Shown: in pieces, positions 325-26,299 of the stretch | Layout: each line of letters begins with the position of its first letter | How positions within the stretch are numbered: position 1 is the stretch's first letter | Virus record (IMG/VR): IMGVR_UViG_3300030331_003157 | Span: 1 to 26,325 of that record | DNA: 26,325 bases | Direction: 5' to 3' (one strand) | Origin: a virus | Lineage: Duplodnaviria; Caudoviricetes | Program-made: the position numbers and the translations under genes | Notes under the pieces: generated by a model | Seen by the model: only the letters and a program-made list of their open reading frames with translations | Told to the model about the DNA's origin: nothing | Databases searched by the model: none

Positions 325-1889
325 TGAAAAATGAATATTATCTTGACGAAGCTGAAGCAAAAAGAGTTATTGCTTTTATAGAAACATTTTGCTCTCATTG
401 TAAAGGCAAATTAAGCGGAGAGCCTTTTATATTGGAGCAATGGCAAAAAGACGAAATTATAGTTCCTCTATTTGCAATGAAAAATAAAAAAACAGGATTA
501 AGAAAATACAGGACCTGCTATATTGAAATCCCTCGGAAGAACGGAAAGACCTCGCTTATTTCTTGTATAGCTTTATATTGTCTTTTCGCGGATTCAGAAA
601 GAGGCTCAGAAATAATCTCCGCAGCTAACGACAGAGCTCAGGCTAGTTTATGTTTTGAGATAGCAAGACAAATGGTTTTAAATAATAAGCAATTAAATGA
701 GAGAGCAAAAGTTTTCAGAAATTCTATTGTATATGAAAAAAAGGGTAATTATTATAAAGCAATTTCTGCTGACGCTTTCACTAAGCACGGAATGAATTGC
801 AATGTTTTAATTTATGACGAATTACATGCCGCGAAAAATCAGGAGTTGTGGGATGTCATGACCACATCACAGGCAGCGAGAGACGAACCTTTGTCGATTG
901 CTATTACAACCGCGGGATATGATAAAAATTCGTTTTGTTATCAAATGAATGATTACGCAACTAAAGTAAAAAAAGGAATTATAAAAGACGAAACATTTTT
1001 GTCTGTTATTTATGCCGCTGACTTAGACGATGACTGGACGAAAGTTTCAACATGGAAAAAAGCAAATCCGAATTATGGTGTTTCTGTTAATAAAGATTAT
1101 TTAAAACAGCAATGTGAGAAAGCAAAAAAGCTCCCAAGTTTTGAGAACACTTATAAGCGTTTACATTTAAATATATGGACTACTCAGGACGTTAAATGGA
1201 TAGGGGACGACAAGTGGGAAAAATGCAATTTGAGACCAATTGATTTAGAACATTTAAAAGGTCGCGAATGTTGGGGAGGTTTAGATTTAGCGTCCGTCTC
1301 CGATTTAACAGCCTTAGTGTTATTGTTTCCAATGGATGACGGAACGTTTGACATTTTAAATTTTAATTGGATTCCTGCGGAGAACGCTTATCAAAGGACT
1401 TTAAAATATGGGATTCCTTTTGACGTATGGATTAATGACGGTTTATTGTATTCAACAGACGGGGATGTTACTGACTTCGAAGCGGTAAAAAATAAAATTT
1501 TAGACTTATCTGAAATATATAATATTAAAAGCATTGCTTTTGATAGGTGGTCAGCTTCCATGCTAGTGAACGATTTAATCGGAGAAGGAGTTAATATGAC
1601 TCCTTACGGTCAGGGTTTTGCGTCAATGTCGTTTCCTTCAAAACAATTGGAGCGTTGGATTTTAGAGAAAAAAATTAATCATGGAGCAAATCCTTTGCTA
1701 AGGTGGCAATTTTCTAACGTTCAAATACAGACAGACGCGTCAGGTAATATCAAACCAAATAAAGCAAAATCAAAGGAAAAAATTGACTCGATAGTTAGTT
1801 TAATTATGAGTATAGGCGATTATATGAACGACAATAACAAACCTAGCGAAAAAACTATTTATAATGATGACAATATAAAGTTTATATGA
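321..1889 (+). CDS. terL: Terminase large subunit (Terminase_1, HK97/cos-type)
   Basis: LEQWQ adenine-binding motif, Walker A IPRKNGKT, Walker B LIYDELH, coupling motif ITTAG, nuclease GGLDLAS and KIDSIVS. Confidence 0.97.
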   Translation: MMKNEYYLDEAEAKRVIAFIETFCSHCKGKLSGEPFILEQWQKDEIIVPLFAMKNKKTGLRKYRTCYIEIPRKNGKTSLISCIALYCLFADSERGSEIISAANDRAQASLCFEIARQMVLNNKQLNERAKVFRNSIVYEKKGNYYKAISADAFTKHGMNCNVLIYDELHAAKNQELWDVMTTSQAARDEPLSIAITTAGYDKNSFCYQMNDYATKVKKGIIKDETFLSVIYAADLDDDWTKVSTWKKANPNYGVSVNKDYLKQQCEKAKKLPSFENTYKRLHLNIWTTQDVKWIGDDKWEKCNLRPIDLEHLKGRECWGGLDLASVSDLTALVLLFPMDDGTFDILNFNWIPAENAYQRTLKYGIPFDVWINDGLLYSTDGDVTDFEAVKNKILDLSEIYNIKSIAFDRWSASMLVNDLIGEGVNMTPYGQGFASMSFPSKQLERWILEKKINHGANPLLRWQFSNVQIQTDASGNIKPNKAKSKEKIDSIVSLIMSIGDYMNDNNKPSEKTIYNDDNIKFI

Positions 1890-2101
1890 CAATATACGAC
1901 AAAACAATCTTAAAATTAATCTCATTTGAGGGGTTTAATCAAAGGTTTGAGCAGAATATGAGGGTCTGTAATACTTATAAAAACGCTTATTTAAAGACCG
2001 AGGAGCAATATAAGGATGTTTTTGGAGAGAAAAAATATGCAAGTTATGACTCATTTCGTATAGTTAGAGCAAGAAAAATGAAAAAAAATAAAAAAAAATA
2101 A
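1886..2101 (+). CDS. Small hypothetical phage protein coupled to TerL
   Basis: ATGA overlap with the TerL stop. 71 aa with a KYASYDSFR motif and a basic tail. Confidence 0.75.
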   Translation: MTIYDKTILKLISFEGFNQRFEQNMRVCNTYKNAYLKTEEQYKDVFGEKKYASYDSFRIVRARKMKKNKKK

Positions 2102-2145
2102 CAGATTAGATTCTATATATTTGTTAAAAAACTCTATTTATTTTG

Positions 2146-2175
2146 TTGATAATTAAAAAAAAAGTGTTATATTTG
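2146..2175 (+). promoter_or_regulatory. Bacteroidota/Flavobacterium housekeeping-sigma promoter
   Basis: TTG (2146-2148), 19-bp spacer, TATATTTG (2168-2175), matching -33 TTG / -7 TAnnTTTG. A second TATATTTG lies at 2116-2123. Confidence 0.75.
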
Positions 2176-2201
2176 AATATTATTAAACAAAACAAAACAA
2201 A

Positions 2202-2489
2202 ATGAAAAATAAAATTAAAACAAATAAAATTCTAGAACTAGCAAGCAAAGTTATTTTAAATGGAAACGCCGAGATTTTAGTTAGTCGCATGAATAACTTA
2301 GAAAGAAAGATTGAAGACAGAGAGGATGTCTTATCTCAAATGAAAGAACAACAATTTGAATTTTACAATCAATTAGAAGTAGAATTATGGAAAGCTGAAT
2401 TATTACTTTTACAAGGGAGACTAGATTTAGTTAGACACCAATCAAAATGTCATGCAATAAAAACAGAAACGACAGAAAAAACAAATTAA
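2202..2489 (+). CDS. Hypothetical coiled-coil protein (moron ORF1)
   Basis: 95-aa ORF behind the promoter, with leader AAACAAAACAAAACAAA-ATG. Confidence 0.75.
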   Translation: MKNKIKTNKILELASKVILNGNAEILVSRMNNLERKIEDREDVLSQMKEQQFEFYNQLEVELWKAELLLLQGRLDLVRHQSKCHAIKTETTEKTN

Positions 2490-2508
2490 TAATTAAAACA
2501 AATACAAA

Positions 2509-2634
2509 ATGGAAAATTTAAAAACAATTAAAGAGATTAAATATGAGTTATGGTTTGACAAAGGTTACGACTACTCATATCTTAATAAGATTAGTATTCC
2601 TGAATTAAAAGGAATTTATTATTCACACTATTAA
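2509..2634 (+). CDS. Small hypothetical protein, 41 aa (moron ORF2; not in the ORF track)
   Basis: MENLKTIKEIKYELWFDKGYDYSYLNKISIPELKGIYYSHY*. Leader AAAACAAATACAAA-ATG; fills the gap between ORF1 and ORF3. Confidence 0.7.
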   Translation: MENLKTIKEIKYELWFDKGYDYSYLNKISIPELKGIYYSHY

Positions 2635-2645
2635 AAACAAAACAA

Positions 2646-2831
2646 ATGGGAAAATTTAAAGACATGTCCATAGAAATTCAGAGAGACGAAAGGTTAATGC
2701 CTACTCAAAAAAAACTATTAAAAACAGCAAACATGGTGCAGCTTTTAAATGAATTAAGAGACGTTAAGTTGTTTAAAAAAGAATTAGAGAAAGAGATAGA
2801 AAAAAGAATAAAAGAAGAAAATAATATTTAA
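2646..2831 (+). CDS. Small hypothetical protein (moron ORF3)
   Basis: 61 aa, leader AAAAACAAAACAA-ATG, charged helical C-terminus. Confidence 0.72.
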   Translation: MGKFKDMSIEIQRDERLMPTQKKLLKTANMVQLLNELRDVKLFKKELEKEIEKRIKEENNI

Positions 2832-2955: not shown

Positions 2956-4242
2956 ATGGGAATAATAGACAATATCAGAAACGTTTTTAAAAGAAATTAC
3001 AGTCCTGAAAATCCTTCAAATCCAATTATACCGCCTTTAGATTACGGTCAGTCAACATCCTCGGGAGTTGATATTAACGAATCTAACTCGTTAACGTTGG
3101 CTGCGGTTTGGGGTTGTATAAGAACCCTCTCAGAGTCGGTTGCTTCGTTACCGATAAACGTCTATCAAAGAGACATGCAAACGGGAGGACGAGACGTTGC
3201 TTACGCTCATCCGATTTATAATTTATTACATAATGCACCTGCAATGAACATGACTTCATATTGTTGGTTTAATACAATGATGTTAAATTTGTGTTTATAT
3301 GGCAACGCTTATGCTCATATTAAGAGAGATAAAAGCATGAGACCAATTGACTTAGTTATCTTAGACCCTTCAAAAATAAAAGTTACTTTAGTTAAAGGAG
3401 AGAAATTTTATGTTCAAACTTATGAAGGCAAAAAAATAACTTATTCAGATAATGAAATAATCCATATTTTAGGATTGTCAACAAACGGATATATAGGAAA
3501 ATCTCCAATTTCTGCGGCTAGAGAAAACATCGGACTCGGTATAGCGTCACAGCGTTACGGGGGTGCGTTTTTTGGGAACGGTGCTTCGTTGTCAGGGGTT
3601 TTAGAACATCCTGCAACTCTATCAAAAGAAGCAATGGAAAGACTGGCTCACACATGGAATCAAAAATATAGTAACAATGGAGGAGCTAATGCTCATAAAA
3701 CAGCAATCTTAGAAGAAGGCATGAGCTTTAAAAATATATCAATTCCGCCAAATGAAGCTCAGTTCATAGAAACAAGAAAATTCTCAGTTGTTGAAATATG
3801 CAGGATTTTTAGAGTGCCTCCTCACTTGGTTATGAGTTTAGACGCTGCGACTTATTCGAATATTGAACAGCAGTCTCTCGAGTTTGTTAAGTATACGCTT
3901 TATCCTTATTTAAGAAATTGGGAACAAGAGTTAAATAAAAAATTATTTAAAGAAAACGAAAAAAGTCGATTATATTGTGAGTTTAAAGTTGACGGATTAT
4001 TGAGAGGAGATTCGAAAAGTCGTTCTGAGTTTTATAGAACTTTATGGAACATGGGAGTTATTTCACAAAACGAAATCAGAAGTTTTGAAAATTTAAACGC
4101 TATTGAAGGAGGAGACAAATATTATGTTCCATTAAACATGACTCCTGCGGACGCTCTAAAAGAGCCGACAGAATCAGTCGAGACAATAAAAGTAGATGAG
4201 GAGAAATCAAAAAAAGTTAATAACCGAAAAAAGAAAAAATAA
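2956..4242 (+). CDS. Portal protein, HK97 family
   Basis: AVWGCIRTLSESVASLP, LCLYGNAY, GKSPI, ILEEGM, EICRIFRVPPHLV, SNIEQQ, NEIRSFENL. ATG 2956 preferred over the TTG at 2920. Confidence 0.96.
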   Translation: MGIIDNIRNVFKRNYSPENPSNPIIPPLDYGQSTSSGVDINESNSLTLAAVWGCIRTLSESVASLPINVYQRDMQTGGRDVAYAHPIYNLLHNAPAMNMTSYCWFNTMMLNLCLYGNAYAHIKRDKSMRPIDLVILDPSKIKVTLVKGEKFYVQTYEGKKITYSDNEIIHILGLSTNGYIGKSPISAARENIGLGIASQRYGGAFFGNGASLSGVLEHPATLSKEAMERLAHTWNQKYSNNGGANAHKTAILEEGMSFKNISIPPNEAQFIETRKFSVVEICRIFRVPPHLVMSLDAATYSNIEQQSLEFVKYTLYPYLRNWEQELNKKLFKENEKSRLYCEFKVDGLLRGDSKSRSEFYRTLWNMGVISQNEIRSFENLNAIEGGDKYYVPLNMTPADALKEPTESVETIKVDEEKSKKVNNRKKKK

Positions 4243-6221
4243 TGCCTTACGTTAATTTTAATGTTGCTAGAGTTAGAAATAATAATGATTTCAAACAGGA
4301 TTCATTTAGGACAATAAAAGGAGGAGAGCATATGTTTCCAAAAGCGGGACTTGTTGTCGTGCCTGACGAAATCAGAGTTATTTCAGGACAGCTTAAACAA
4401 GTAGAAAATGAACAATATAGAGCTCCAATGGAGTTATTGTTTCCAATTGACAAATATCCCGCAGAATCGGACGTCAGGACATGGCTAGAAGACGAAAATA
4501 TTGAAATGATTAATTACTATCCCGCAGGAGAAGGCAAAATGGATGATGAGGAGGAGGAAAGAGCTTTAGAGGATATTGATTTAACTCCGACAGACGCAAT
4601 GATTAATGAGGCTAAAAAAGGTTTGGAATGGAGAAAAGAATTTAACAGAGGAGGGACAGACATCGGAGTCGGCACAGCAGAAGCTATTATTAACAAATCA
4701 ATCACTTTAGACAGAGTCAAAAGAATGTTTAGTTATTTTAGCAGACATGAAGTTGATAAAAAAGCCGAGGGTTTTGAATACGGAGAGGACGGGTTTCCTT
4801 CGAACGGTCGTATTGCGTGGGCCTTATGGGGAGGAGACGCAGGTTTTGAATGGTCACAAAGAAAAACAGAGCAAATAAAAGACGAGGAGGAGAGAAATAT
4901 ATATTTAGTAATGGGATGTTCATGCTCAGGAAAATCAACTTATATAAGAAACAACGCAAAATCAGGAGACTTAATTTTTGATTTTGACAAAATACATCAA
5001 GCGTTAACAATTAGCGAGAAACATCAACACAATGATATTATTAAAAAATATGTTTTTGAAATTAGAGACGCAATTTTCAATAAATTAAAAAGAGATAATA
5101 ATATTAAAGCATGGATAATTAATTCGTCTCCATTAAAAGACGTTAGAAAAAAATTAGTTAATCAATTAAACGCAAAAGTTATTTATATTCAAAGAGACAA
5201 AGACGACTGTTTAAAAATCGCAGAAAACGAAAGACCTGAAGAATATAAAAATTATATTAATAATTATTTTAATGATTTTGACGGTTTTGATGATGACGAA
5301 AATATTGAGATTATACAAATAGATAAAAAAAATCTAACGACACAAGAAAAAACAAACAAGAGAGACATTATCGGATATTTAATAACAGACGGAATTGAGC
5401 TTCCATTATTTGAGACAATAGAAGAAGCTCAACAAGAAGCCGAAAGATTAGGCGGGAACGGTTATCATGAGCATAAAGTCGATGACGTTATTTATTTTAT
5501 GCCTTTTGAAAGTCATGCAGAAGCAATGAATGTTTTAAAAGAAAATAATATCTCTGAAGAAAAAAAAATAAAAGAATATAATAATTTTAAAATTAATAAC
5601 ATGGAAAGAAGAATATTTGCTAACGAGTTTCGTGTCGTTGATGACAAGAAAAAGAAAAATAAAAAAATAATCGGATATGCTTCAGTTTTTTATAATGAAG
5701 AAAAACGTTCAGAATCAGAAAATCTAGGAGGTTTTTATGAGCGTATAAATCCGAGAGCTTTTGATAAAGTTATCGAAGAAAAACAAGACGTCAGAGCGTT
5801 GTTTAACCATAACGCAGATTTAGGCGTTTTAGGTCGCACAACATCAGGGACTTTGAAATTAGAAGTTGACGAAAAAGGTTTGAAATATGAGATTGACACT
5901 CCTGACACTCAACTAGCAAGAGACTTAGTTGCTTCAATGGAGAGAGGAGATATTTCTCAAAGTTCATTCGGTTTCACAATTTCTGAAAACGGAGATTCTT
6001 GGGACGAGGATTCTGACGGGAGAACTATAAGAACAATCAATCAAGTTGAACAGCTGTTCGATATTTCTCCAGTTGTATATCCTGCATATACTGACGCTTC
6101 AGTTGCATTAAGGAGTTTTAATAACTACAAAGAAAACAAACAAAAAACAGAAAACACGAAAGAAAAAACAGACTTACACGAGAGAAATTTAAGAGAATTA
6201 AAATTGAAAATAATTAAATAA
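4242..6221 (+). CDS. Multidomain HK97-type prohead protease (protease in aa ~454-659; four N-terminal domains including a P-loop kinase-like domain)
   Basis: C-terminal IGYASVF, LFNHN (His), SSFGF (Ser), DISPVVYPAY. Walker A GCSCSGKS at 4914-4937. Lies between portal and capsid genes. Confidence 0.9.
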   Translation: MPYVNFNVARVRNNNDFKQDSFRTIKGGEHMFPKAGLVVVPDEIRVISGQLKQVENEQYRAPMELLFPIDKYPAESDVRTWLEDENIEMINYYPAGEGKMDDEEEERALEDIDLTPTDAMINEAKKGLEWRKEFNRGGTDIGVGTAEAIINKSITLDRVKRMFSYFSRHEVDKKAEGFEYGEDGFPSNGRIAWALWGGDAGFEWSQRKTEQIKDEEERNIYLVMGCSCSGKSTYIRNNAKSGDLIFDFDKIHQALTISEKHQHNDIIKKYVFEIRDAIFNKLKRDNNIKAWIINSSPLKDVRKKLVNQLNAKVIYIQRDKDDCLKIAENERPEEYKNYINNYFNDFDGFDDDENIEIIQIDKKNLTTQEKTNKRDIIGYLITDGIELPLFETIEEAQQEAERLGGNGYHEHKVDDVIYFMPFESHAEAMNVLKENNISEEKKIKEYNNFKINNMERRIFANEFRVVDDKKKKNKKIIGYASVFYNEEKRSESENLGGFYERINPRAFDKVIEEKQDVRALFNHNADLGVLGRTTSGTLKLEVDEKGLKYEIDTPDTQLARDLVASMERGDISQSSFGFTISENGDSWDEDSDGRTIRTINQVEQLFDISPVVYPAYTDASVALRSFNNYKENKQKTENTKEKTDLHERNLRELKLKIIK

Positions 6222-6239: not shown

Positions 6240-7496
6240 ATGAGTAATATAAATAATTTAAAAGCGATTAAAGAGGACAGAGTTTCTTTAGTTCAAGAAA
6301 TGGACAACATTCTTGAGACTGCGAAAAAAGAGGACAGAAATTTGTCGAAAGACGAACAAGTTAAATGGGACGGATTATATGAAAAAGAAGCAGAACTAAG
6401 AAAAGCAGCGAACACTTTAAAAACGCAAGACGACTTAAATAAGTCATTAGCAGCAGACTCAACTCCTGTAAAGGATGACGTTTCTGTTGACCAAAAAGAG
6501 GCAAGAAGTGCCGCTTTCAATAAATACATCAAAAGAGGTTTTCAAGGTTTGAACGCTTCTGAAAAAAAATTAGTTGAAGTGAGGGGCACAGCGGCTCAAA
6601 CTACTGCGACTGATTCTTTAGGCGGTTACATCGTGCCGAAATCATTTTCGGATGAATTAAACGTGAAATTACAGGGAGGTTTTTCTTCTGTAATGACAGC
6701 AGGAGCAAGACATGGCTCAATCATAAACACTGCAACAGGTTCTCCATTGTATTATCCAAACACTTCGGACACTACAACAGGAGCAATGATGACAGAAGGC
6801 TCTGCGGTTGCTGTTTCTGACATAACTTTCGGAAACACAATATTAAACGCTTATACGTTTACGTCTAAAGTTGTTAAAATATCTAAACAGTTATTAACTG
6901 ACGAAGGTTTTAACGTTAACGATTGGTTAGTTGACATCCTTGCTAGAAGATTAGCGAAAGGTATAGATGAGCAACTAACAGGAGGTTCAGGTTCATCTGC
7001 TCCAACAGGTATTAACAATGCGGCAACTGATTCAGGTGTTGGTTTTGGAGCAGACACTCCAACATTAGCAGAGTTAAATGAGGTTTATCATGCAGTTAAT
7101 TCAGCATATAGAGGAGCTAATTCTTGTTGGTTTATGACAGATGGTTTATGGAAAAATATCAAACAAATGACAGTTAACAGCAATTTAATTGCTAATGCTG
7201 ACATTTTAAGCGGTGTTAGACCATCATTTAGCGAGGATGGAAATGCAGGGGTTATTTTCGGAAAGCCTGTTTATTTGAATGAAAATCTTTCAGCAGCAGG
7301 TGCTTCTGGAGGCAAAACAATGGTATTCGGAGATATTTCTCAATACAAAATCAGAATGGTTGGGCAACCTCAACTTCTTAGATTAGATGAGAGATATGCT
7401 GACGAGTTAAACGTTGGTTTCATTATGTTCCATAGATTAGACGGTCAATTGGTTACAGCAGCAACTGACGCTTTAGTTTATGCAACAAGAGACTAA
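6240..7496 (+). CDS. Major capsid protein, HK97 fold, with N-terminal delta (scaffold) domain
   Basis: Coiled-coil N-terminal ~115 aa, then GGYIVP, VKISKQLLTD, IFGKPV, VFGD, RLDG motifs. Confidence 0.95.
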   Translation: MSNINNLKAIKEDRVSLVQEMDNILETAKKEDRNLSKDEQVKWDGLYEKEAELRKAANTLKTQDDLNKSLAADSTPVKDDVSVDQKEARSAAFNKYIKRGFQGLNASEKKLVEVRGTAAQTTATDSLGGYIVPKSFSDELNVKLQGGFSSVMTAGARHGSIINTATGSPLYYPNTSDTTTGAMMTEGSAVAVSDITFGNTILNAYTFTSKVVKISKQLLTDEGFNVNDWLVDILARRLAKGIDEQLTGGSGSSAPTGINNAATDSGVGFGADTPTLAELNEVYHAVNSAYRGANSCWFMTDGLWKNIKQMTVNSNLIANADILSGVRPSFSEDGNAGVIFGKPVYLNENLSAAGASGGKTMVFGDISQYKIRMVGQPQLLRLDERYADELNVGFIMFHRLDGQLVTAATDALVYATRD

Positions 7497-8302: not shown

Positions 8303-8818
8303 ATGGCTAAAGGACTTCCATTAATGAAAAAAGGTTTATTGACAGCTGAACTTGTTGACAATGACGATGTTAAAAAGTTTTTAAAAACACTCCCTGAAGG
8401 TTATAAAAGACGTTTTTTAATATCTATATTAAGACAAAACTCAAAACCATTTATTAAAGCGGCAAGACAAAACCTATCAGCTTCAGTCGAAGGACAGTCA
8501 ACAGGATATTTAGCAAAAAGTATAGGATTTAAAGTTAAAAGAACTAAAAACAAAGACGTTGTTTTTGCAGGAGTTAGACCAAATGCAAACAAAAAATATT
8601 CAAAACAAAAAATCGGAAACGAAGAAGTCAGGACAGCTTCTTATGCGGTTGGTATTGAGTGGGGCATGTATAAAGGCGTTTTCTCGGGTTTTGGTTACAT
8701 GAGGAAGGCTTATGAGTCTCAAAAAGCCTTAGTTCGAAAAAACATGGTTAAAGACGCTCAGGAGGTTATCGAAAAAAGAACAAAAAGAATGTTAAAAAAC
8801 GGTAAATATAAAAGATAA
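8303..8818 (+). CDS. HK97 gp10-like neck/tail completion protein
   Basis: Basic protein with TGYLAKSI, YAVGIEWG and YMRKAYE motifs, plus synteny. Confidence 0.8.
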   Translation: MAKGLPLMKKGLLTAELVDNDDVKKFLKTLPEGYKRRFLISILRQNSKPFIKAARQNLSASVEGQSTGYLAKSIGFKVKRTKNKDVVFAGVRPNANKKYSKQKIGNEEVRTASYAVGIEWGMYKGVFSGFGYMRKAYESQKALVRKNMVKDAQEVIEKRTKRMLKNGKYKR

Positions 8819-13217: not shown

Positions 13218-13532
13218 ATGAATATAGGACAATTAGACAGACGAATTACAATTCAACAACCTTCAGAGTCTCAATCGGCTTTCGGAGACATGACGATTTC
13301 TTGGGCAACTTTGAGGAGCGTTTGGGCTCATGTAATTTATAAATCAGGAAATGAGAAAGACCAAGCGGACAGAATAACTGACATAACAACGGTCATTTTT
13401 ACTATTAGATACGCGTCAGACGTTACACAACAAATGAGAGTTTCTTTTGATTCTAACACATATTACATCGATGAAGTTTTGCACCATGGTCGTAAAAAAT
13501 GGACTCAACTTAAAGTTAAAATAAAACAATAA
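13218..13532 (+). CDS. Head-closure / head-tail joining protein (SPP1 gp16-like)
   Basis: MNIGQLDRRITIQ, VWAHV, FTIRY, MRVSF signature. Confidence 0.9.
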   Translation: MNIGQLDRRITIQQPSESQSAFGDMTISWATLRSVWAHVIYKSGNEKDQADRITDITTVIFTIRYASDVTQQMRVSFDSNTYYIDEVLHHGRKKWTQLKVKIKQ

Positions 13533-16976: not shown

Positions 16977-17121
16977 TCCTAAAGTTATTGAATGGAATAA
17001 AAAACAGAGACACGAGTCACGTCCTGTCCCTGCATGGAAAATAGATTTATTTAAAATTGTCAGTAAATATGAAACAAAAAACCTTGTTAAATTAAACTCA
17101 AAAGATTATAATTCGAAATAA
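16930..17121 (+). CDS. Hypothetical basic protein
   Basis: 63 aa; its stop overlaps the next ATG (TAATG). Confidence 0.6.
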   Translation: MTKKENHNRRKSNRINPKVIEWNKKQRHESRPVPAWKIDLFKIVSKYETKNLVKLNSKDYNSK

Positions 17122-18212
17122 TGAAAAAAATATTATTTATATTATGTTTATTGATGACTTTAGGATTAAAAGGTCAAATTGACGATTTGTTTAAATTTTC
17201 GACTTTTTACGGTTCTTTGGGCGTTAACAATGCGTTATTTTCGCAGGGTCAATATGTTATGCAAAACAACCAGTTAATCGATTTAACACAAGACAATCCT
17301 TATGATTTTTCTTTAAATATAGGCATTAGAAAAATCGCTCGTTTTAAACATCAAAATAAAAAAAATAATTTTTATGACGGTTCGGAAAAATATCACACAG
17401 ATAACACTTTAATCGGAGCGGTTAAAGGTTTAGAATATAAATTCCAATTAGAAACAAAAAGACAACAAAATAGAGAGTTTAGAAATAAACATTATTTTCT
17501 TCGTTATTTATCAGACTATTATGTCATTAAAGCTGAACACTTAGAAAACGGTCTAGCAGACGTTAGATTTTATAATATTGACACGCGTTTTAGAGTTAAA
17601 ATCGGTAATAAATTAAATTTCACTTTTGGCGGTTTAAATACATGGAGACCGTTAGGTTATGAATATAACGCAATTCAGTCTTATATTGACGCGGGTCATC
17701 CTTGGTGGCAATTAGCTTTTGATTATGGCTATGAGGACCATTACTGGTATTTTGACGGAGAAGGTAACGGACAGGACGACTGGTATGATTATTACGACTG
17801 GTATTGGACGAATCCTGACGGAGAGCGTATTGCGGAGACAGACCAAGAATTTTATAAATATCATTACGGGAGAATCGTTAGGGAGTATCAGTTGGATATG
17901 CAGGACAGTCTCGGTTTAACTCATGAATTTTCATTCGCATTAGGATTGTCGTTTTATCATTATTCGGATAATTTTTGGATTCATAGTTGGACGGACGTTT
18001 TTCCGAAACGTTGGGTTAGTGACATAGACGACAATATTTCACAATATATAGAATTAAACAACGAAAGGATTGATTATAACATCGGATTAATTGTAGGGAC
18101 TAGAATCGGAAAAAACAAAAATTTCGGATTATTTGTCGAAGGCAATTACAATCAAATGTTTGAGAGAAATTGGTTTAACATAAAAACAGGAATTAACTAT
18201 TTATTTTTTTAA
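17121..18212 (+). CDS. Secreted, probable outer-membrane beta-barrel protein
   Basis: Sec signal MKKILFILCLLMTLGLKG-Q, alternating amphipathic strands, C-terminal beta-signal-like KTGINYLFF. Confidence 0.72.
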   Translation: MKKILFILCLLMTLGLKGQIDDLFKFSTFYGSLGVNNALFSQGQYVMQNNQLIDLTQDNPYDFSLNIGIRKIARFKHQNKKNNFYDGSEKYHTDNTLIGAVKGLEYKFQLETKRQQNREFRNKHYFLRYLSDYYVIKAEHLENGLADVRFYNIDTRFRVKIGNKLNFTFGGLNTWRPLGYEYNAIQSYIDAGHPWWQLAFDYGYEDHYWYFDGEGNGQDDWYDYYDWYWTNPDGERIAETDQEFYKYHYGRIVREYQLDMQDSLGLTHEFSFALGLSFYHYSDNFWIHSWTDVFPKRWVSDIDDNISQYIELNNERIDYNIGLIVGTRIGKNKNFGLFVEGNYNQMFERNWFNIKTGINYLFF

Positions 18213-18215
18213 AAA

Positions 18216-18485
18216 ATGACAAAAGAATTAAACGAAGACACAACTTTCAAATTCAGCATTAAAACTTTGATAGCTATTGGAGTTATTGTTGCTTCTTTTA
18301 TTGGCATGTATTATCAATTAAATGCAAAAATAGACGTAGCAATGGAAGAACCAAAACCCGAAGTTTCTGAAATAGAATTTACTTTAAAAGACGAAATGAT
18401 TAGAAACGAGATTTTAAATCAGAGTAAACAATTAGAGCAAATTTTATTAAGGATTGAAAGAATCGAAAATAAAGTTTATGAATAA
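18216..18485 (+). CDS. Single-TM protein with C-terminal coiled coil
   Basis: TM segment LIAIGVIVASFIGMYY, then LEQILLRIERIENKV. Confidence 0.75.
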   Translation: MTKELNEDTTFKFSIKTLIAIGVIVASFIGMYYQLNAKIDVAMEEPKPEVSEIEFTLKDEMIRNEILNQSKQLEQILLRIERIENKVYE

Positions 18486-18885
18486 ACAATTTATTGTTAA
18501 TAATATTATTTCATATATATTTATAATAGGATTTTTATTATTAAATTCTGTTTCATTATATAGTCAAGATTTTATAAATGCTAAAAGTTTTGATAAAAAA
18601 ATATCTAACGATATTGTTGTCATTGAATTTTGGGCAGAATGGAACGACAAAAATAAATTTGAAGACTTAAGCAAATTAAACGAATGTCAAAAATATAGAG
18701 TTGACATAAACGAAAACGAATCCTTAAAAGACAAATATAATATAATGGCTTTGCCGACTATTATCATTTTTAATGACGGGAAGCAAGAAAAAAGATTTAA
18801 CGCAAATATTTCTTTTGAATTAAATGCAACAAAAAAAGACATTCAAAATATTATTGATAATTTGATTTTACAAAAATTTAGATAA
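18478..18885 (+). CDS. Exported thioredoxin-fold protein lacking CxxC
   Basis: VVIEFWAEWNDKN at the WCxxC position, YRVDI, YNIMALPTIIIFNDG (cis-Pro loop). Signal-like N-terminus ending SLYS-Q. ATG 18478 preferred. Confidence 0.82.
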   Translation: MNKQFIVNNIISYIFIIGFLLLNSVSLYSQDFINAKSFDKKISNDIVVIEFWAEWNDKNKFEDLSKLNECQKYRVDINENESLKDKYNIMALPTIIIFNDGKQEKRFNANISFELNATKKDIQNIIDNLILQKFR

Positions 18886-25942: not shown

Positions 25943-26299
25943 ATGACTCCAATAAAACCTAAAGGAAAAAATAAAACATGGATAGCTAAAACTAAACAGG
26001 ACTCTAAGAGTTTTAAAGATAGAGGCAATGACAATCCTTTTTATAATACTACTAAATGGAGAACCCTTAGGAAATACTATATTACTAAGCAACCATTGTG
26101 CGAAGTATGTCAGCGTTTTGGAAAAATAATTGAGGGCAAAGTAGTTGACCACATTAAAAGAGTTAAGACTAATCCTGAGTTAGCATTAATAGAGTCTAAC
26201 CTTCAAACATTATGTAATCGATGTCATAACATAAAGTCAGGGTCTGAGGGGCATAGAAAAAAAAAATACTATAATAATAACATAGGGAGGGTGTCTTAA
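25943..26299 (+). CDS. HNH endonuclease (HK97 gp74-like terminase cofactor)
   Basis: FYNTTKWRTLR, PLCEVC, VDHI, NLQTLCNRCHNIKS; would precede terS on a circular map. Confidence 0.93.
   Translation: MTPIKPKGKNKTWIAKTKQDSKSFKDRGNDNPFYNTTKWRTLRKYYITKQPLCEVCQRFGKIIEGKVVDHIKRVKTNPELALIESNLQTLCNRCHNIKSGSEGHRKKKYYNNNIGRVS

What the first reader, a model, noticed from the sequence alone, without database searches (positions are those of the whole stretch)
4242..6221. Prohead protease as a five-domain polyprotein with Arg-ending linkers: possible self-cleaving capsid cargo system
Seen: the 659-aa ORF parses into D1 (aa ~1-96), D2 (~108-213, RGGT...RMFSYFSRH...SNGRIAWALWGGDAG), D3 P-loop kinase-like (~219-362), D4 (~375-430) and the protease (~454-659). 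Junctions read EEEER|A, DEEER|N and TNKR|D. Similar sites occur at the capsid delta-domain end (VEVR|G, aa 115/116), the portal N-terminus (VFKR|N) and the protease C-terminus (VALR|S). Known: HK97-type proteases are normally about 200 aa, are co-assembled inside the prohead and cut after basic residues. Inference: the extra domains are carried into the head on the protease, released on maturation, and possibly ejected into the host.
Basis: partly seen in the sequence, partly recalled or inferred. Interest (0 to 1): 0.85.

Follow-up and report, generated by a model that had tools for sequence, protein, structure and literature searches.

The report
Phage head protease carrying cleavable cargo
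A marine phage's head-maturation protease carries four small, freely swapped protein modules in front of it, each of the inner three preceded by an arginine that is usually lysine or another residue in phages with a different protease, so the protease likely brings these modules into the new capsid and cuts them loose, probably for delivery into the next host.

Summary
Window 4242-6221 is one 659-aa frame between an HK97-type portal and major capsid gene: four modules, an S78 protease with His523/Ser575, and a helical tail. The modules shuffle (29 architectures among 121 relatives; close relatives lack D3 or D4) and also sit on portals, MuF proteins and protease-capsid fusions. Key test: the residue before a module follows the resident protease. 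It is Arg where the protease tail site and capsid delta site are Arg, Lys where those are Lys (37 of 37 protease clusters, after setting aside 12 kinase-to-D2 junctions), and other residues with other protease families. This rests on only 1-2 independent switches. The kinase junction (R218) is the weak one, and Met454 looks like an internal start that could give a plain protease. D3 is a P-loop kinase fold; D4 is DUF3721-like; D2 is an unnamed five-helix family of about 5,000 clusters with no solved match. Cleavage, packaging and ejection are inferred, not shown. This scan noted the same theme on other DNA, mostly T4-type phages. Verdict: new variant of a known kind (T4 internal proteins, polyvalent proteins), testable in cultured phages.

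The parts
4242..6221 (+). Whole gene: four-module cargo plus HK97-family (S78) head-maturation protease, 659 aa
4242..4529 (+). D1 (aa 1-96), small beta/alpha module, net acidic; probably a divergent member of a family also found in Synechococcus S-CBS1 and roseophage protease-capsid fusions
   Evidence: profile comparison E 1.6e-4, 24% over 74 columns, probability 50%; model confidence low
4560..4562 (+). Arg107, predicted cut before D2 (best-fitting site)
   Evidence: rank 1 of 38 Arg under a profile trained only on capsid sites, rank 4 with tail sites added; conserved in relatives
4563..4889 (+). D2 (aa 108-216), unnamed five-helix domain, mostly on head proteins
   Evidence: 4,977 representatives at E<=1e-3; 47 of 74 long ones scanned carry a head-protein family; model pLDDT 90; best solved match Z 5.2
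4893..4895 (+). Arg218, possible cut before D3 (weakest site)
   Evidence: R 21, K 10, N 3 sequences in Arg-type relatives; rank 14 and 32 of 38
4896..5327 (+). D3 (aa 219-362), P-loop kinase fold with Walker A, D-x-D and one lid Arg; family usually encoded next to or fused with the packaging HNH
   Evidence: removed in frame in P0004 and in a contig of run X10 (4887 to 5350)
5361..5363 (+). Arg374, predicted cut before D4
   Evidence: Arg in 35 of 35 distinct Arg-type junctions; Lys in 20 of 23 Lys-type; poor fit to the capsid-site profile at P1'
5364..5549 (+). D4 (aa 375-436), DUF3721-like module with His410, His412, His426; Cys/His in many relatives, likely metal-binding
   Evidence: absent from P0005
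5581..5603 (+). A/T-rich stretch and Met454: candidate internal translation start for a plain 206-aa protease
   Evidence: score 4.9, like true starts; 1 of 75 internal ATGs scores as high; Met at this place in 91 of 148 module-bearing relatives
5601..6113 (+). S78 protease domain (aa 454-624), catalytic His523 (5808-5810) and Ser575 (5964-5966); N-terminal Arg457 and Arg464 as predicted self-cuts
   Evidence: His in 276 and Ser in 278 of 278 aligned domains; T4 gp21 fold Z 10.8
6111..6218 (+). Arg624 site and C-terminal basic helix (aa 625-659, pI 9.7), likely capsid-targeting tail
   Evidence: column basic in 275 of 278; helix in model; targeting role recalled from HK97 work, not read
6582..6584 (+). 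Major capsid protein Arg115, end of delta domain, equivalent of HK97 K103/S104
   Evidence: 15 of 15 Arg-type clusters R, 9 of 9 Lys-type K; PMC10275583 passage
2956..4242 (+). HK97-type portal; candidate N-terminal cut at Arg13 (2992-2994)
   Evidence: basic site follows protease type by eye, not counted
6240..7496 (+). HK97-type major capsid protein with 115-aa delta domain

Best explanation
This is an HK97-family, likely arginine-specific head protease with four shuffled modules fused in front of it, which it likely carries into the prohead and cuts free, and the freed 10-19 kDa domains probably stay in the head and enter the next host with the DNA. Steps: (1, shown) one frame, five domains, intact catalytic pair, between portal and capsid genes. 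(2, shown in sequence) modules are gained, lost and reordered at the linkers, and move between protease, portal, MuF and capsid fusions. (3, inferred, about 0.8) the fusion co-assembles with the capsid delta domains through its C-terminal tail. (4, inferred, about 0.8; 0.55 for R218) the protease cuts capsid R115, its tail R624, portal R13 and linkers R107, R374, R457/464; D2 and D3 may stay joined. (5, inferred, about 0.55) folded modules are retained and ejected, as T4 internal proteins are, and act early in infection, most likely against host defence: D3 phosphorylating a nucleotide or nucleic-acid end, D4 binding a metal, D2 binding a target common to bacteria and archaea (nucleic acid or small nucleotide) since it occurs in viruses of both. 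An internal start at Met454 (about 0.5) would add cargo-free protease and set the cargo dose.
For: Shuffling: 29 architectures among 121 proteins; P0004 lacks D3 and P0005 lacks D4; D3-plus and D3-minus contigs in one run. Head association: D2 on an HK97-type portal in 56 of 80 loci and a Mu-type portal in 8 (counted); 47 of 74 long representatives carry portal, protease, capsid or MuF families. Site code: tail site R 227, K 48, other 3 of 278; capsid site follows it 15/15 and 9/9 clusters (76 of 139 capsids had the anchor motif); D2 junction R in 92 and K in 12 Arg-type sequences, K in 38 and R in 0 Lys-type; D4 35/35 and 20/23; a third module 16 R and 2 K clusters; new representatives 14 of 14 for three other modules. 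D2 is 60-67% identical across phages whose proteases are 16-25% identical or of another family, and its junction changes to aromatic-Ala/Ser with Mu-like proteases, Asn in HATV-3 and Ala-Ser in DSL-LC01, matching motifs repeated in those head proteins (by eye). Co-cargo in relatives includes ADP-ribosyltransferase, HAD phosphatase, ferritin-like and Tudor domains. Precedent: T4 Alt and MuF fusions, and assemblin-like peptidases at the C-termini of polyvalent proteins (PMC5512222 passages).
Against: No cut, packaging or ejection observed. Only 1-2 independent R/K switches on the protease tree, sign test p 1; one clade of Arg-type D2 not rejected (p-AU 0.32) and of Lys-type barely (0.043). Offsets for D4 and one D2 subtype were set after seeing the data. 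All 12 D3-to-D2 junctions in Arg-type proteases are Lys, and 13 of 34 junctions before D3 are not Arg. P0128 has Lys before D2 with an Arg-type tail; of 6 new D2 junctions in Arg- or Lys-type proteins only 2 matched at the fixed offset. R218 and R374 fit the capsid-site profile poorly. D3 relatives are HNH-linked packaging genes, and BH1 ORF57 is not among 17 virion proteins. D1, D2, D4 are acidic (pI 4.6-4.9). No defence-system match.
Confidence: 0.52

Rival explanations
1. The modules are packaged and cut free but work inside the head (protecting or organising DNA, binding metal, aiding packaging or maturation) and need not enter the host.
For: Same site and head-association evidence. Ferritin-like co-cargo and metal-ligand D4. 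D3 family tied to the HNH/terminase module. D2 occurs across bacterial and archaeal hosts, fitting a DNA or small-molecule target.
Against: Modules are dispensable and swap rapidly among close relatives, the pattern of conflict genes; enzymatic co-cargo such as ADP-ribosyltransferase needs host substrates; acidic charge argues against plain DNA condensation.
Confidence: 0.2
2. Fusion is only a route to late expression: the protease is made mainly from Met454, and the modules are cut off in the cytoplasm and act in the infected cell late in infection.
For: Met454 scores like a true start and is the top-scoring ATG in several related loci. Stand-alone D2-like proteins of about 100-125 aa exist. 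A D3 relative is not in BH1 virions.
Against: 57 of 148 module-bearing proteases have no such Met. The modules ride almost only on proteins inside the head, including 1:1 protease-capsid fusions and portals, which must enter the prohead. The A/T-rich signal may only reflect Asn/Lys/Ile codons.
Confidence: 0.13
3. The modules are near-neutral hitchhikers that spread by recombination because any insert flanked by protease sites is removed and degraded at maturation.
For: Free gain, loss and duplication; matching sites would be needed in this case too.
Against: D2 keeps 60-67% identity across distant phages with many nearly invariant residues and D3 keeps its catalytic motifs; no mobility enzyme is present in the modules.
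Confidence: 0.08
4. The linker Arg are not cut; the protein stays whole and the residues are structural caps of the modules.
For: No loose linker at R218 in the model; poor profile fit of R218 and R374; few independent switches.
Against: Several unrelated modules switch R to K together with the capsid and tail sites, and to non-basic residues with other protease families.
Confidence: 0.07

Closest known systems
HK97 gp4-type (S78) prohead protease and delta-domain maturation
   Same: Catalytic domain, portal-protease-capsid order, basic P1 at the delta-domain end (HK97 K103/S104, PMC10275583 passage), C-terminal tail. Recalled, not read (Duda, Oh, Hendrix 2013): the tail targets the protease and engineered N-terminal fusions into proheads.
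   Different: Three times the usual length; natural, shuffled N-terminal cargo; Arg rather than Lys sites.
T4 internal proteins IPI-III and Alt with capsid-targeting sequence and gp21 processing
   Same: Small proteins loaded into the head, processed by the head protease, delivered to the host (PMC9024508, PMC5512222 passages).
   Different: No separate genes or N-terminal targeting peptide; the protease itself is the carrier; HK97-type head; Arg not Glu (T4 specificity recalled); modules unrelated to IPs and mostly acidic.
Polyvalent proteins (Iyer et al. 2017, PMC5512222)
   Same: Disparate domains in one chain among late genes; the paper notes assemblin-like peptidases at C-termini and suggests processing by embedded peptidases.
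   Different: None of the named polyvalent domains was detected; short chain; in the passages seen, no protease-matched linker code and no D1, D2, D4. The paper's FTP supplements were not seen.
MuF- and portal-fused phage effectors
   Same: Effector domains fused to head proteins; D2 itself occurs on MuF and portal proteins.
   Different: Carrier here is the protease, cargo is N-terminal and multiple, no toxin or immunity gene recognised.
HNH-linked phage P-loop kinase (Lactobacillus phage A2 ORF61, BH1 ORF57, Tortellini gp76)
   Same: About 30% identity over 106-114 aa, shared Walker A and D-x-D.
   Different: Moved from the HNH/cos end of the genome onto the protease; this window's HNH (25943-26299) stands alone.

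Membership tests
HK97-family prohead protease (S78) | Profile score above curated cut-off | tested here: met
   PF04586 160 bits vs 21; TIGR01543 101.5 vs 59
HK97-family prohead protease (S78) | His/Ser catalytic pair | tested here: met
   H523 and S575 in columns conserved 276/278 and 278/278
HK97-family prohead protease (S78) | Gene between HK97 portal and delta-domain capsid gene | tested here: met
HK97-family prohead protease (S78) | Cleaves the delta domain inside the prohead | not testable with these tools
   Site R115 inferred by alignment to relatives
HK97-family prohead protease (S78) | C-terminal tail binds delta domain and targets the prohead | not tested
   Helical basic tail present; role recalled; no complex prediction obtained
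T4 internal protein / CTS system | T4 gp21-family protease cutting after Glu | tested here: not met
   Protease is S78 by sequence; sites are Arg; fold shared with gp21 only
T4 internal protein / CTS system | Cargo on separate genes with an N-terminal targeting peptide | tested here: not met
   Cargo is in the protease frame
T4 internal protein / CTS system | Cargo retained in virion and ejected | not testable with these tools
   No proteome of a carrier phage found
Polyvalent proteins (Iyer 2017) | Several disparate domains in one chain among virion genes | tested here: met
Polyvalent proteins (Iyer 2017) | Characteristic domain set (MPTase, LPD, PBECR, ART and others) | tested here: inconclusive
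   No such Pfam hit in P0001; an ART domain occurs with D2 in one relative; the paper's own profiles were not available
MuF polymorphic toxins | MuF domain in the protein | tested here: not met
   No PF04233 hit
P-loop kinase (polynucleotide/gluconate kinase fold), D3 | Fold and Walker A, D-x-D, lid Arg | tested here: met
   Z 10.4-11.9, rmsd 3.1-4.5 A over 130-150 residues to several kinases, tied; motifs (one lid Arg only)
P-loop kinase (polynucleotide/gluconate kinase fold), D3 | Substrate specificity | not testable with these tools
   Top matches have different substrates
DUF3721, D4 | Profile score above cut-off | tested here: inconclusive
   13.4 bits vs 27 here; 28 bits in relative P0076

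The most novel reading that the evidence does not exclude
Aquatic tailed viruses share a pool of small effector modules that dock onto any protein inside the head (protease, portal, MuF, capsid fusion) and re-tune one linker residue to the resident maturation protease (Arg, Lys, Ala/Ser, Asn). The head protease then acts as loader and release enzyme of a general injected-cargo system, and D2, a five-helix fold of about 5,000 families in viruses of bacteria and archaea, is a widespread counter-defence protein delivered with the genome.
Probability: 0.3. Interest if true: 0.88.

Novelty: new variant of a known kind. Interest (0 to 1): 0.7.

Why it matters
Small HK97-type phages are usually thought to carry little protein inside the head. 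If the protease doubles as a carrier, they have a built-in route to deliver day-zero effectors, and thousands of long 'prohead proteases', 'portals' and 'major capsid proteins' in marine viromes are really polyproteins. The linker rule also predicts protease specificity and mature N-termini from sequence, and it points to several large unnamed domain families (D1, D2, DUF3721, DUF5824) as candidate counter-defence proteins. Cultured carriers exist (Synechococcus S-CBS1 and S-CBS3, Roseobacter CRP-811 group, phiPsal1, HRTV-4, HATV-3), so the claim is directly testable.

Tried and rejected
Assembly chimera or hidden stop: rejected. Solved relatives by sequence: none at E<=1. D2 fold search: no Foldseek match at E<=0.001, best VIA Z 5.2, rmsd 4.2 A over 83 residues, within the range of common helical arrangements; this does not prove a new fold. 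D1 and D4 were not folded alone, so their folds are barely tested. PADLOC: nothing meaningful. D4 in cultured phages: no match. D3 scan of IMG/VR with one sequence: only the two near-identical loci. First site table lost most Lys-type proteases and was redone; the capsid alignment failed to give a column and was replaced by a motif rule. The DUF5824-like module gave no clean fixed offset and was not counted. D2 trees are too weak to show repeated transfer (11 long-branch or unclassified rows left out in 136). Joints with only 21 letters on one side and the 93-base skip inside D2 were not used. RNA run X13 covers parts of the gene as contigs only, no evidence of expression. No complex prediction of tail with delta domain was obtained, so step 3 rests on analogy. 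Literature: no paper holds DUF3721, DUF5824, DUF6321, PF12518 or PF19141; searches listed nothing describing this arrangement; the library lacks most subscription journals.
Full report
Setting. The window is a 26.3-kb linear virus record, about 60% complete, held by marine metagenomes. It is a siphovirus-like HK97-type late operon: small terminase 34-324, large terminase 321-1889, portal, protease, capsid, neck and tail genes. A/T-rich starts without a Shine-Dalgarno motif and DUF3127 suggest a Bacteroidota host; that link is recalled and untested.

Observation. The gene is one 659-aa frame, confirmed by other assemblies and by relatives at 98% and 87%. An AlphaFold model from a 36-row alignment gives separate domains with low-confidence linkers at 97-107, 362-376 and 437-450, but none at R218. 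The protease passes curated cut-offs and keeps His523 and Ser575.

Modules shuffle. The search found 1,508 relatives at E<=0.001 among 7,999 scored candidates; the best 120 were examined. With the query they show 29 architectures built from D1-D4 and other modules, including a DUF5824-like one. P0004 lacks D3 and P0005 lacks D4 with clean ends in the linkers. Run X10 holds a contig joining 4887 to 5350 (462 bases, in frame, depth 30.6) beside a D3-bearing contig (depth 16.9). Of the best 80 of 152 IMG/VR loci with D2, 56 carry it on an HK97-type portal and 8 on a Mu-type portal (my count); the rest are protease, protease-capsid fusions or fragments. A D2 profile finds 4,977 representatives at 50% clustering; of 145 new ones listed, 74 long ones were scanned and 47 carry a head-protein family. 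D2 is in 33 cultured-phage records with hosts among proteobacteria, cyanobacteria, actinobacteria and haloarchaea.

The linker test. If the Arg are protease sites, they should change with the protease. In 278 S78-type domains the column of R624 is R in 227, K in 48, other in 3 (four KR pairs were treated as R). The capsid delta site follows it: R in 15 of 15 Arg-type clusters, K in 9 of 9 Lys-type (76 of 139 capsids had the anchor motif). Before D2: Arg-type R 92 sequences (15 clusters), K 12 (3 clusters, all directly after D3); Lys-type K 38 (9 clusters), R 0; four of a Tyr subtype fell off the fixed offset. Before D4: R in 35 of 35 distinct Arg-type junctions, K in 20 of 23 Lys-type, at offsets chosen after viewing. 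Another short module: 16 R clusters, 2 K clusters. In newly fetched representatives three other modules matched 14 of 14; D2 matched 2 of 6, with one real mismatch (P0128), one likely column slip, one subtype and one unexplained; some of these proteins duplicate loci already counted. Pooled, 37 of 37 clusters agree after setting aside the 12 post-D3 junctions and shifting the Tyr subtype. With other protease families the D2 junction is non-basic and resembles motifs repeated through those head proteins (by eye). D2 is 60-67% identical between phages whose proteases are 16-25% identical or unrelated, so it has moved between head systems.

Limits of the test. The protease tree needs only two changes, giving 1-2 independent pairs, and D2 trees do not show repeated transfer, so the Fisher values overstate the case. 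The kinase is the exception: R 21, K 10, N 3 before it and K after it. A profile from capsid sites ranks R107 first of 38 but R218 14th and R374 32nd; P1' is free at module junctions, so recognition would rest on P1 and exposure.

Internal start. The 20 bases before Met454 score 4.9 under a model from 34 gene starts of this window, against a leave-one-out range of -4.8 to 7.8; 1 of 75 internal ATGs scores as high. A Met sits there in 91 of 148 module-bearing relatives (12 clusters with, 15 without) and is the top ATG in several loci. It may be a working start or a relic; Asn/Lys/Ile codons confound it.

What the modules are. D3 has the fold of polynucleotide, gluconate and related kinases, with ties at Z 10-12 and intact motifs. 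Its nearest cultured relatives follow or are fused to the packaging HNH; BH1 ORF57 is not among the 17 proteins of that phage's LC-MS table. D4 is DUF3721-like with His or Cys ligands. D2 models confidently as five helices with no clear solved match. D1 weakly joins a family found in S-CBS1 and roseophages, preceded by Arg in all 3 internal cases. D1, D2 and D4 are acidic, D3 and the tail basic. Relatives carry D2 with ADP-ribosyltransferase, HAD phosphatase, ferritin-like and Tudor domains.

Mechanism. Most likely the fusion co-assembles through its tail, cuts capsid, portal, tail and linkers after Arg, and leaves folded modules in the head to be ejected with DNA (0.52). Rivals: action inside the head (0.20), late cytoplasmic action (0.13), neutral passengers (0.08), no cutting (0.07). 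That cargo fused to an HK97 protease enters proheads is recalled from Duda, Oh and Hendrix 2013, which I could not read (only its citation was seen).

Comparison. It is a member of S78. It works like T4 internal proteins with gp21 but fails that system's defining features. Iyer et al. 2017 (PMC5512222, passages) already note assemblin-like peptidases at the ends of polyvalent proteins and fusions of effectors to MuF and portal; their FTP supplements, not seen, may list such architectures. Other papers seen as passages: PMC13728456, PMC9024508, PMC12629253 (no mention of protease or mass spectrometry), PMC10275583, PMC8508860, PMC6950654, PMC10612066. Ten searches listed no paper on this arrangement. 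Earlier notes of this scan describe protease-linker polyproteins on other DNA; my reading was written before I saw them, and I did not check them.

Verdict. Real feature; new variant of a known kind; interest 0.70.

Noticed in passing
window 5581-5603: Candidate internal translation start giving a cargo-free protease; several relatives have a top-scoring internal ATG before the protease or before another module.
   Followed up: partly
L006-L076 (for example L013:1628-3766): Portals extended at the C-terminus by D4, D2 and a DUF5824-like module, up to three D4 copies (L027), all with Lys junctions; several kb of small genes lie between portal and protease.
   Followed up: partly
L039:3317-7479, L063:236-4865, L077:2656-6276: Mu-type portal-MuF fusions and Mu-like proteases carry the same modules with aromatic-Ala/Ser junctions.
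   Followed up: partly
L168:3983-5956, L169:2588-8295: Vibrio phage 1.013.O and Haloarcula tailed virus 3 head proteins are rich in Ala/Asn-Asn motifs, suggesting an Asn-specific maturation protease.
   Followed up: no
L078:2276-5263; P0167, P0208, P0249: Ferritin-like domains, and in P0208 a HAD phosphatase, ride on proteases together with D2.
   Followed up: no
P0194, P0203, P0227: D2 is also fused to ClpP-type head proteases.
   Followed up: no
P0123, P0125, P0126, P0253: Proteins with three D2 copies, two of them with DUF5872.
   Followed up: no
window 17121-18885: After the tail genes: a 363-aa protein with a signal-like N-terminus and no Pfam hit, a small membrane protein and a thioredoxin-like protein, then DUF5675 and a holin-like gene.
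   Followed up: no
window 1886-2831: Three small unannotated genes between terminase and portal; relatives differ in this interval.
   Followed up: no
window 8303-8818 and 13218-13532: The head-completion gene lies after the tape measure gene, away from the other neck genes.
   Followed up: no
window 25943-26299: Stand-alone HNH at the end of the record next (circularly) to the small terminase; lacks the kinase that follows or is fused to it in A2, BH1 and Tortellini.
   Followed up: partly
window 4730-4824: Contigs of runs X9 and X11 skip 93 bases inside D2, letters between not known.
   Followed up: no
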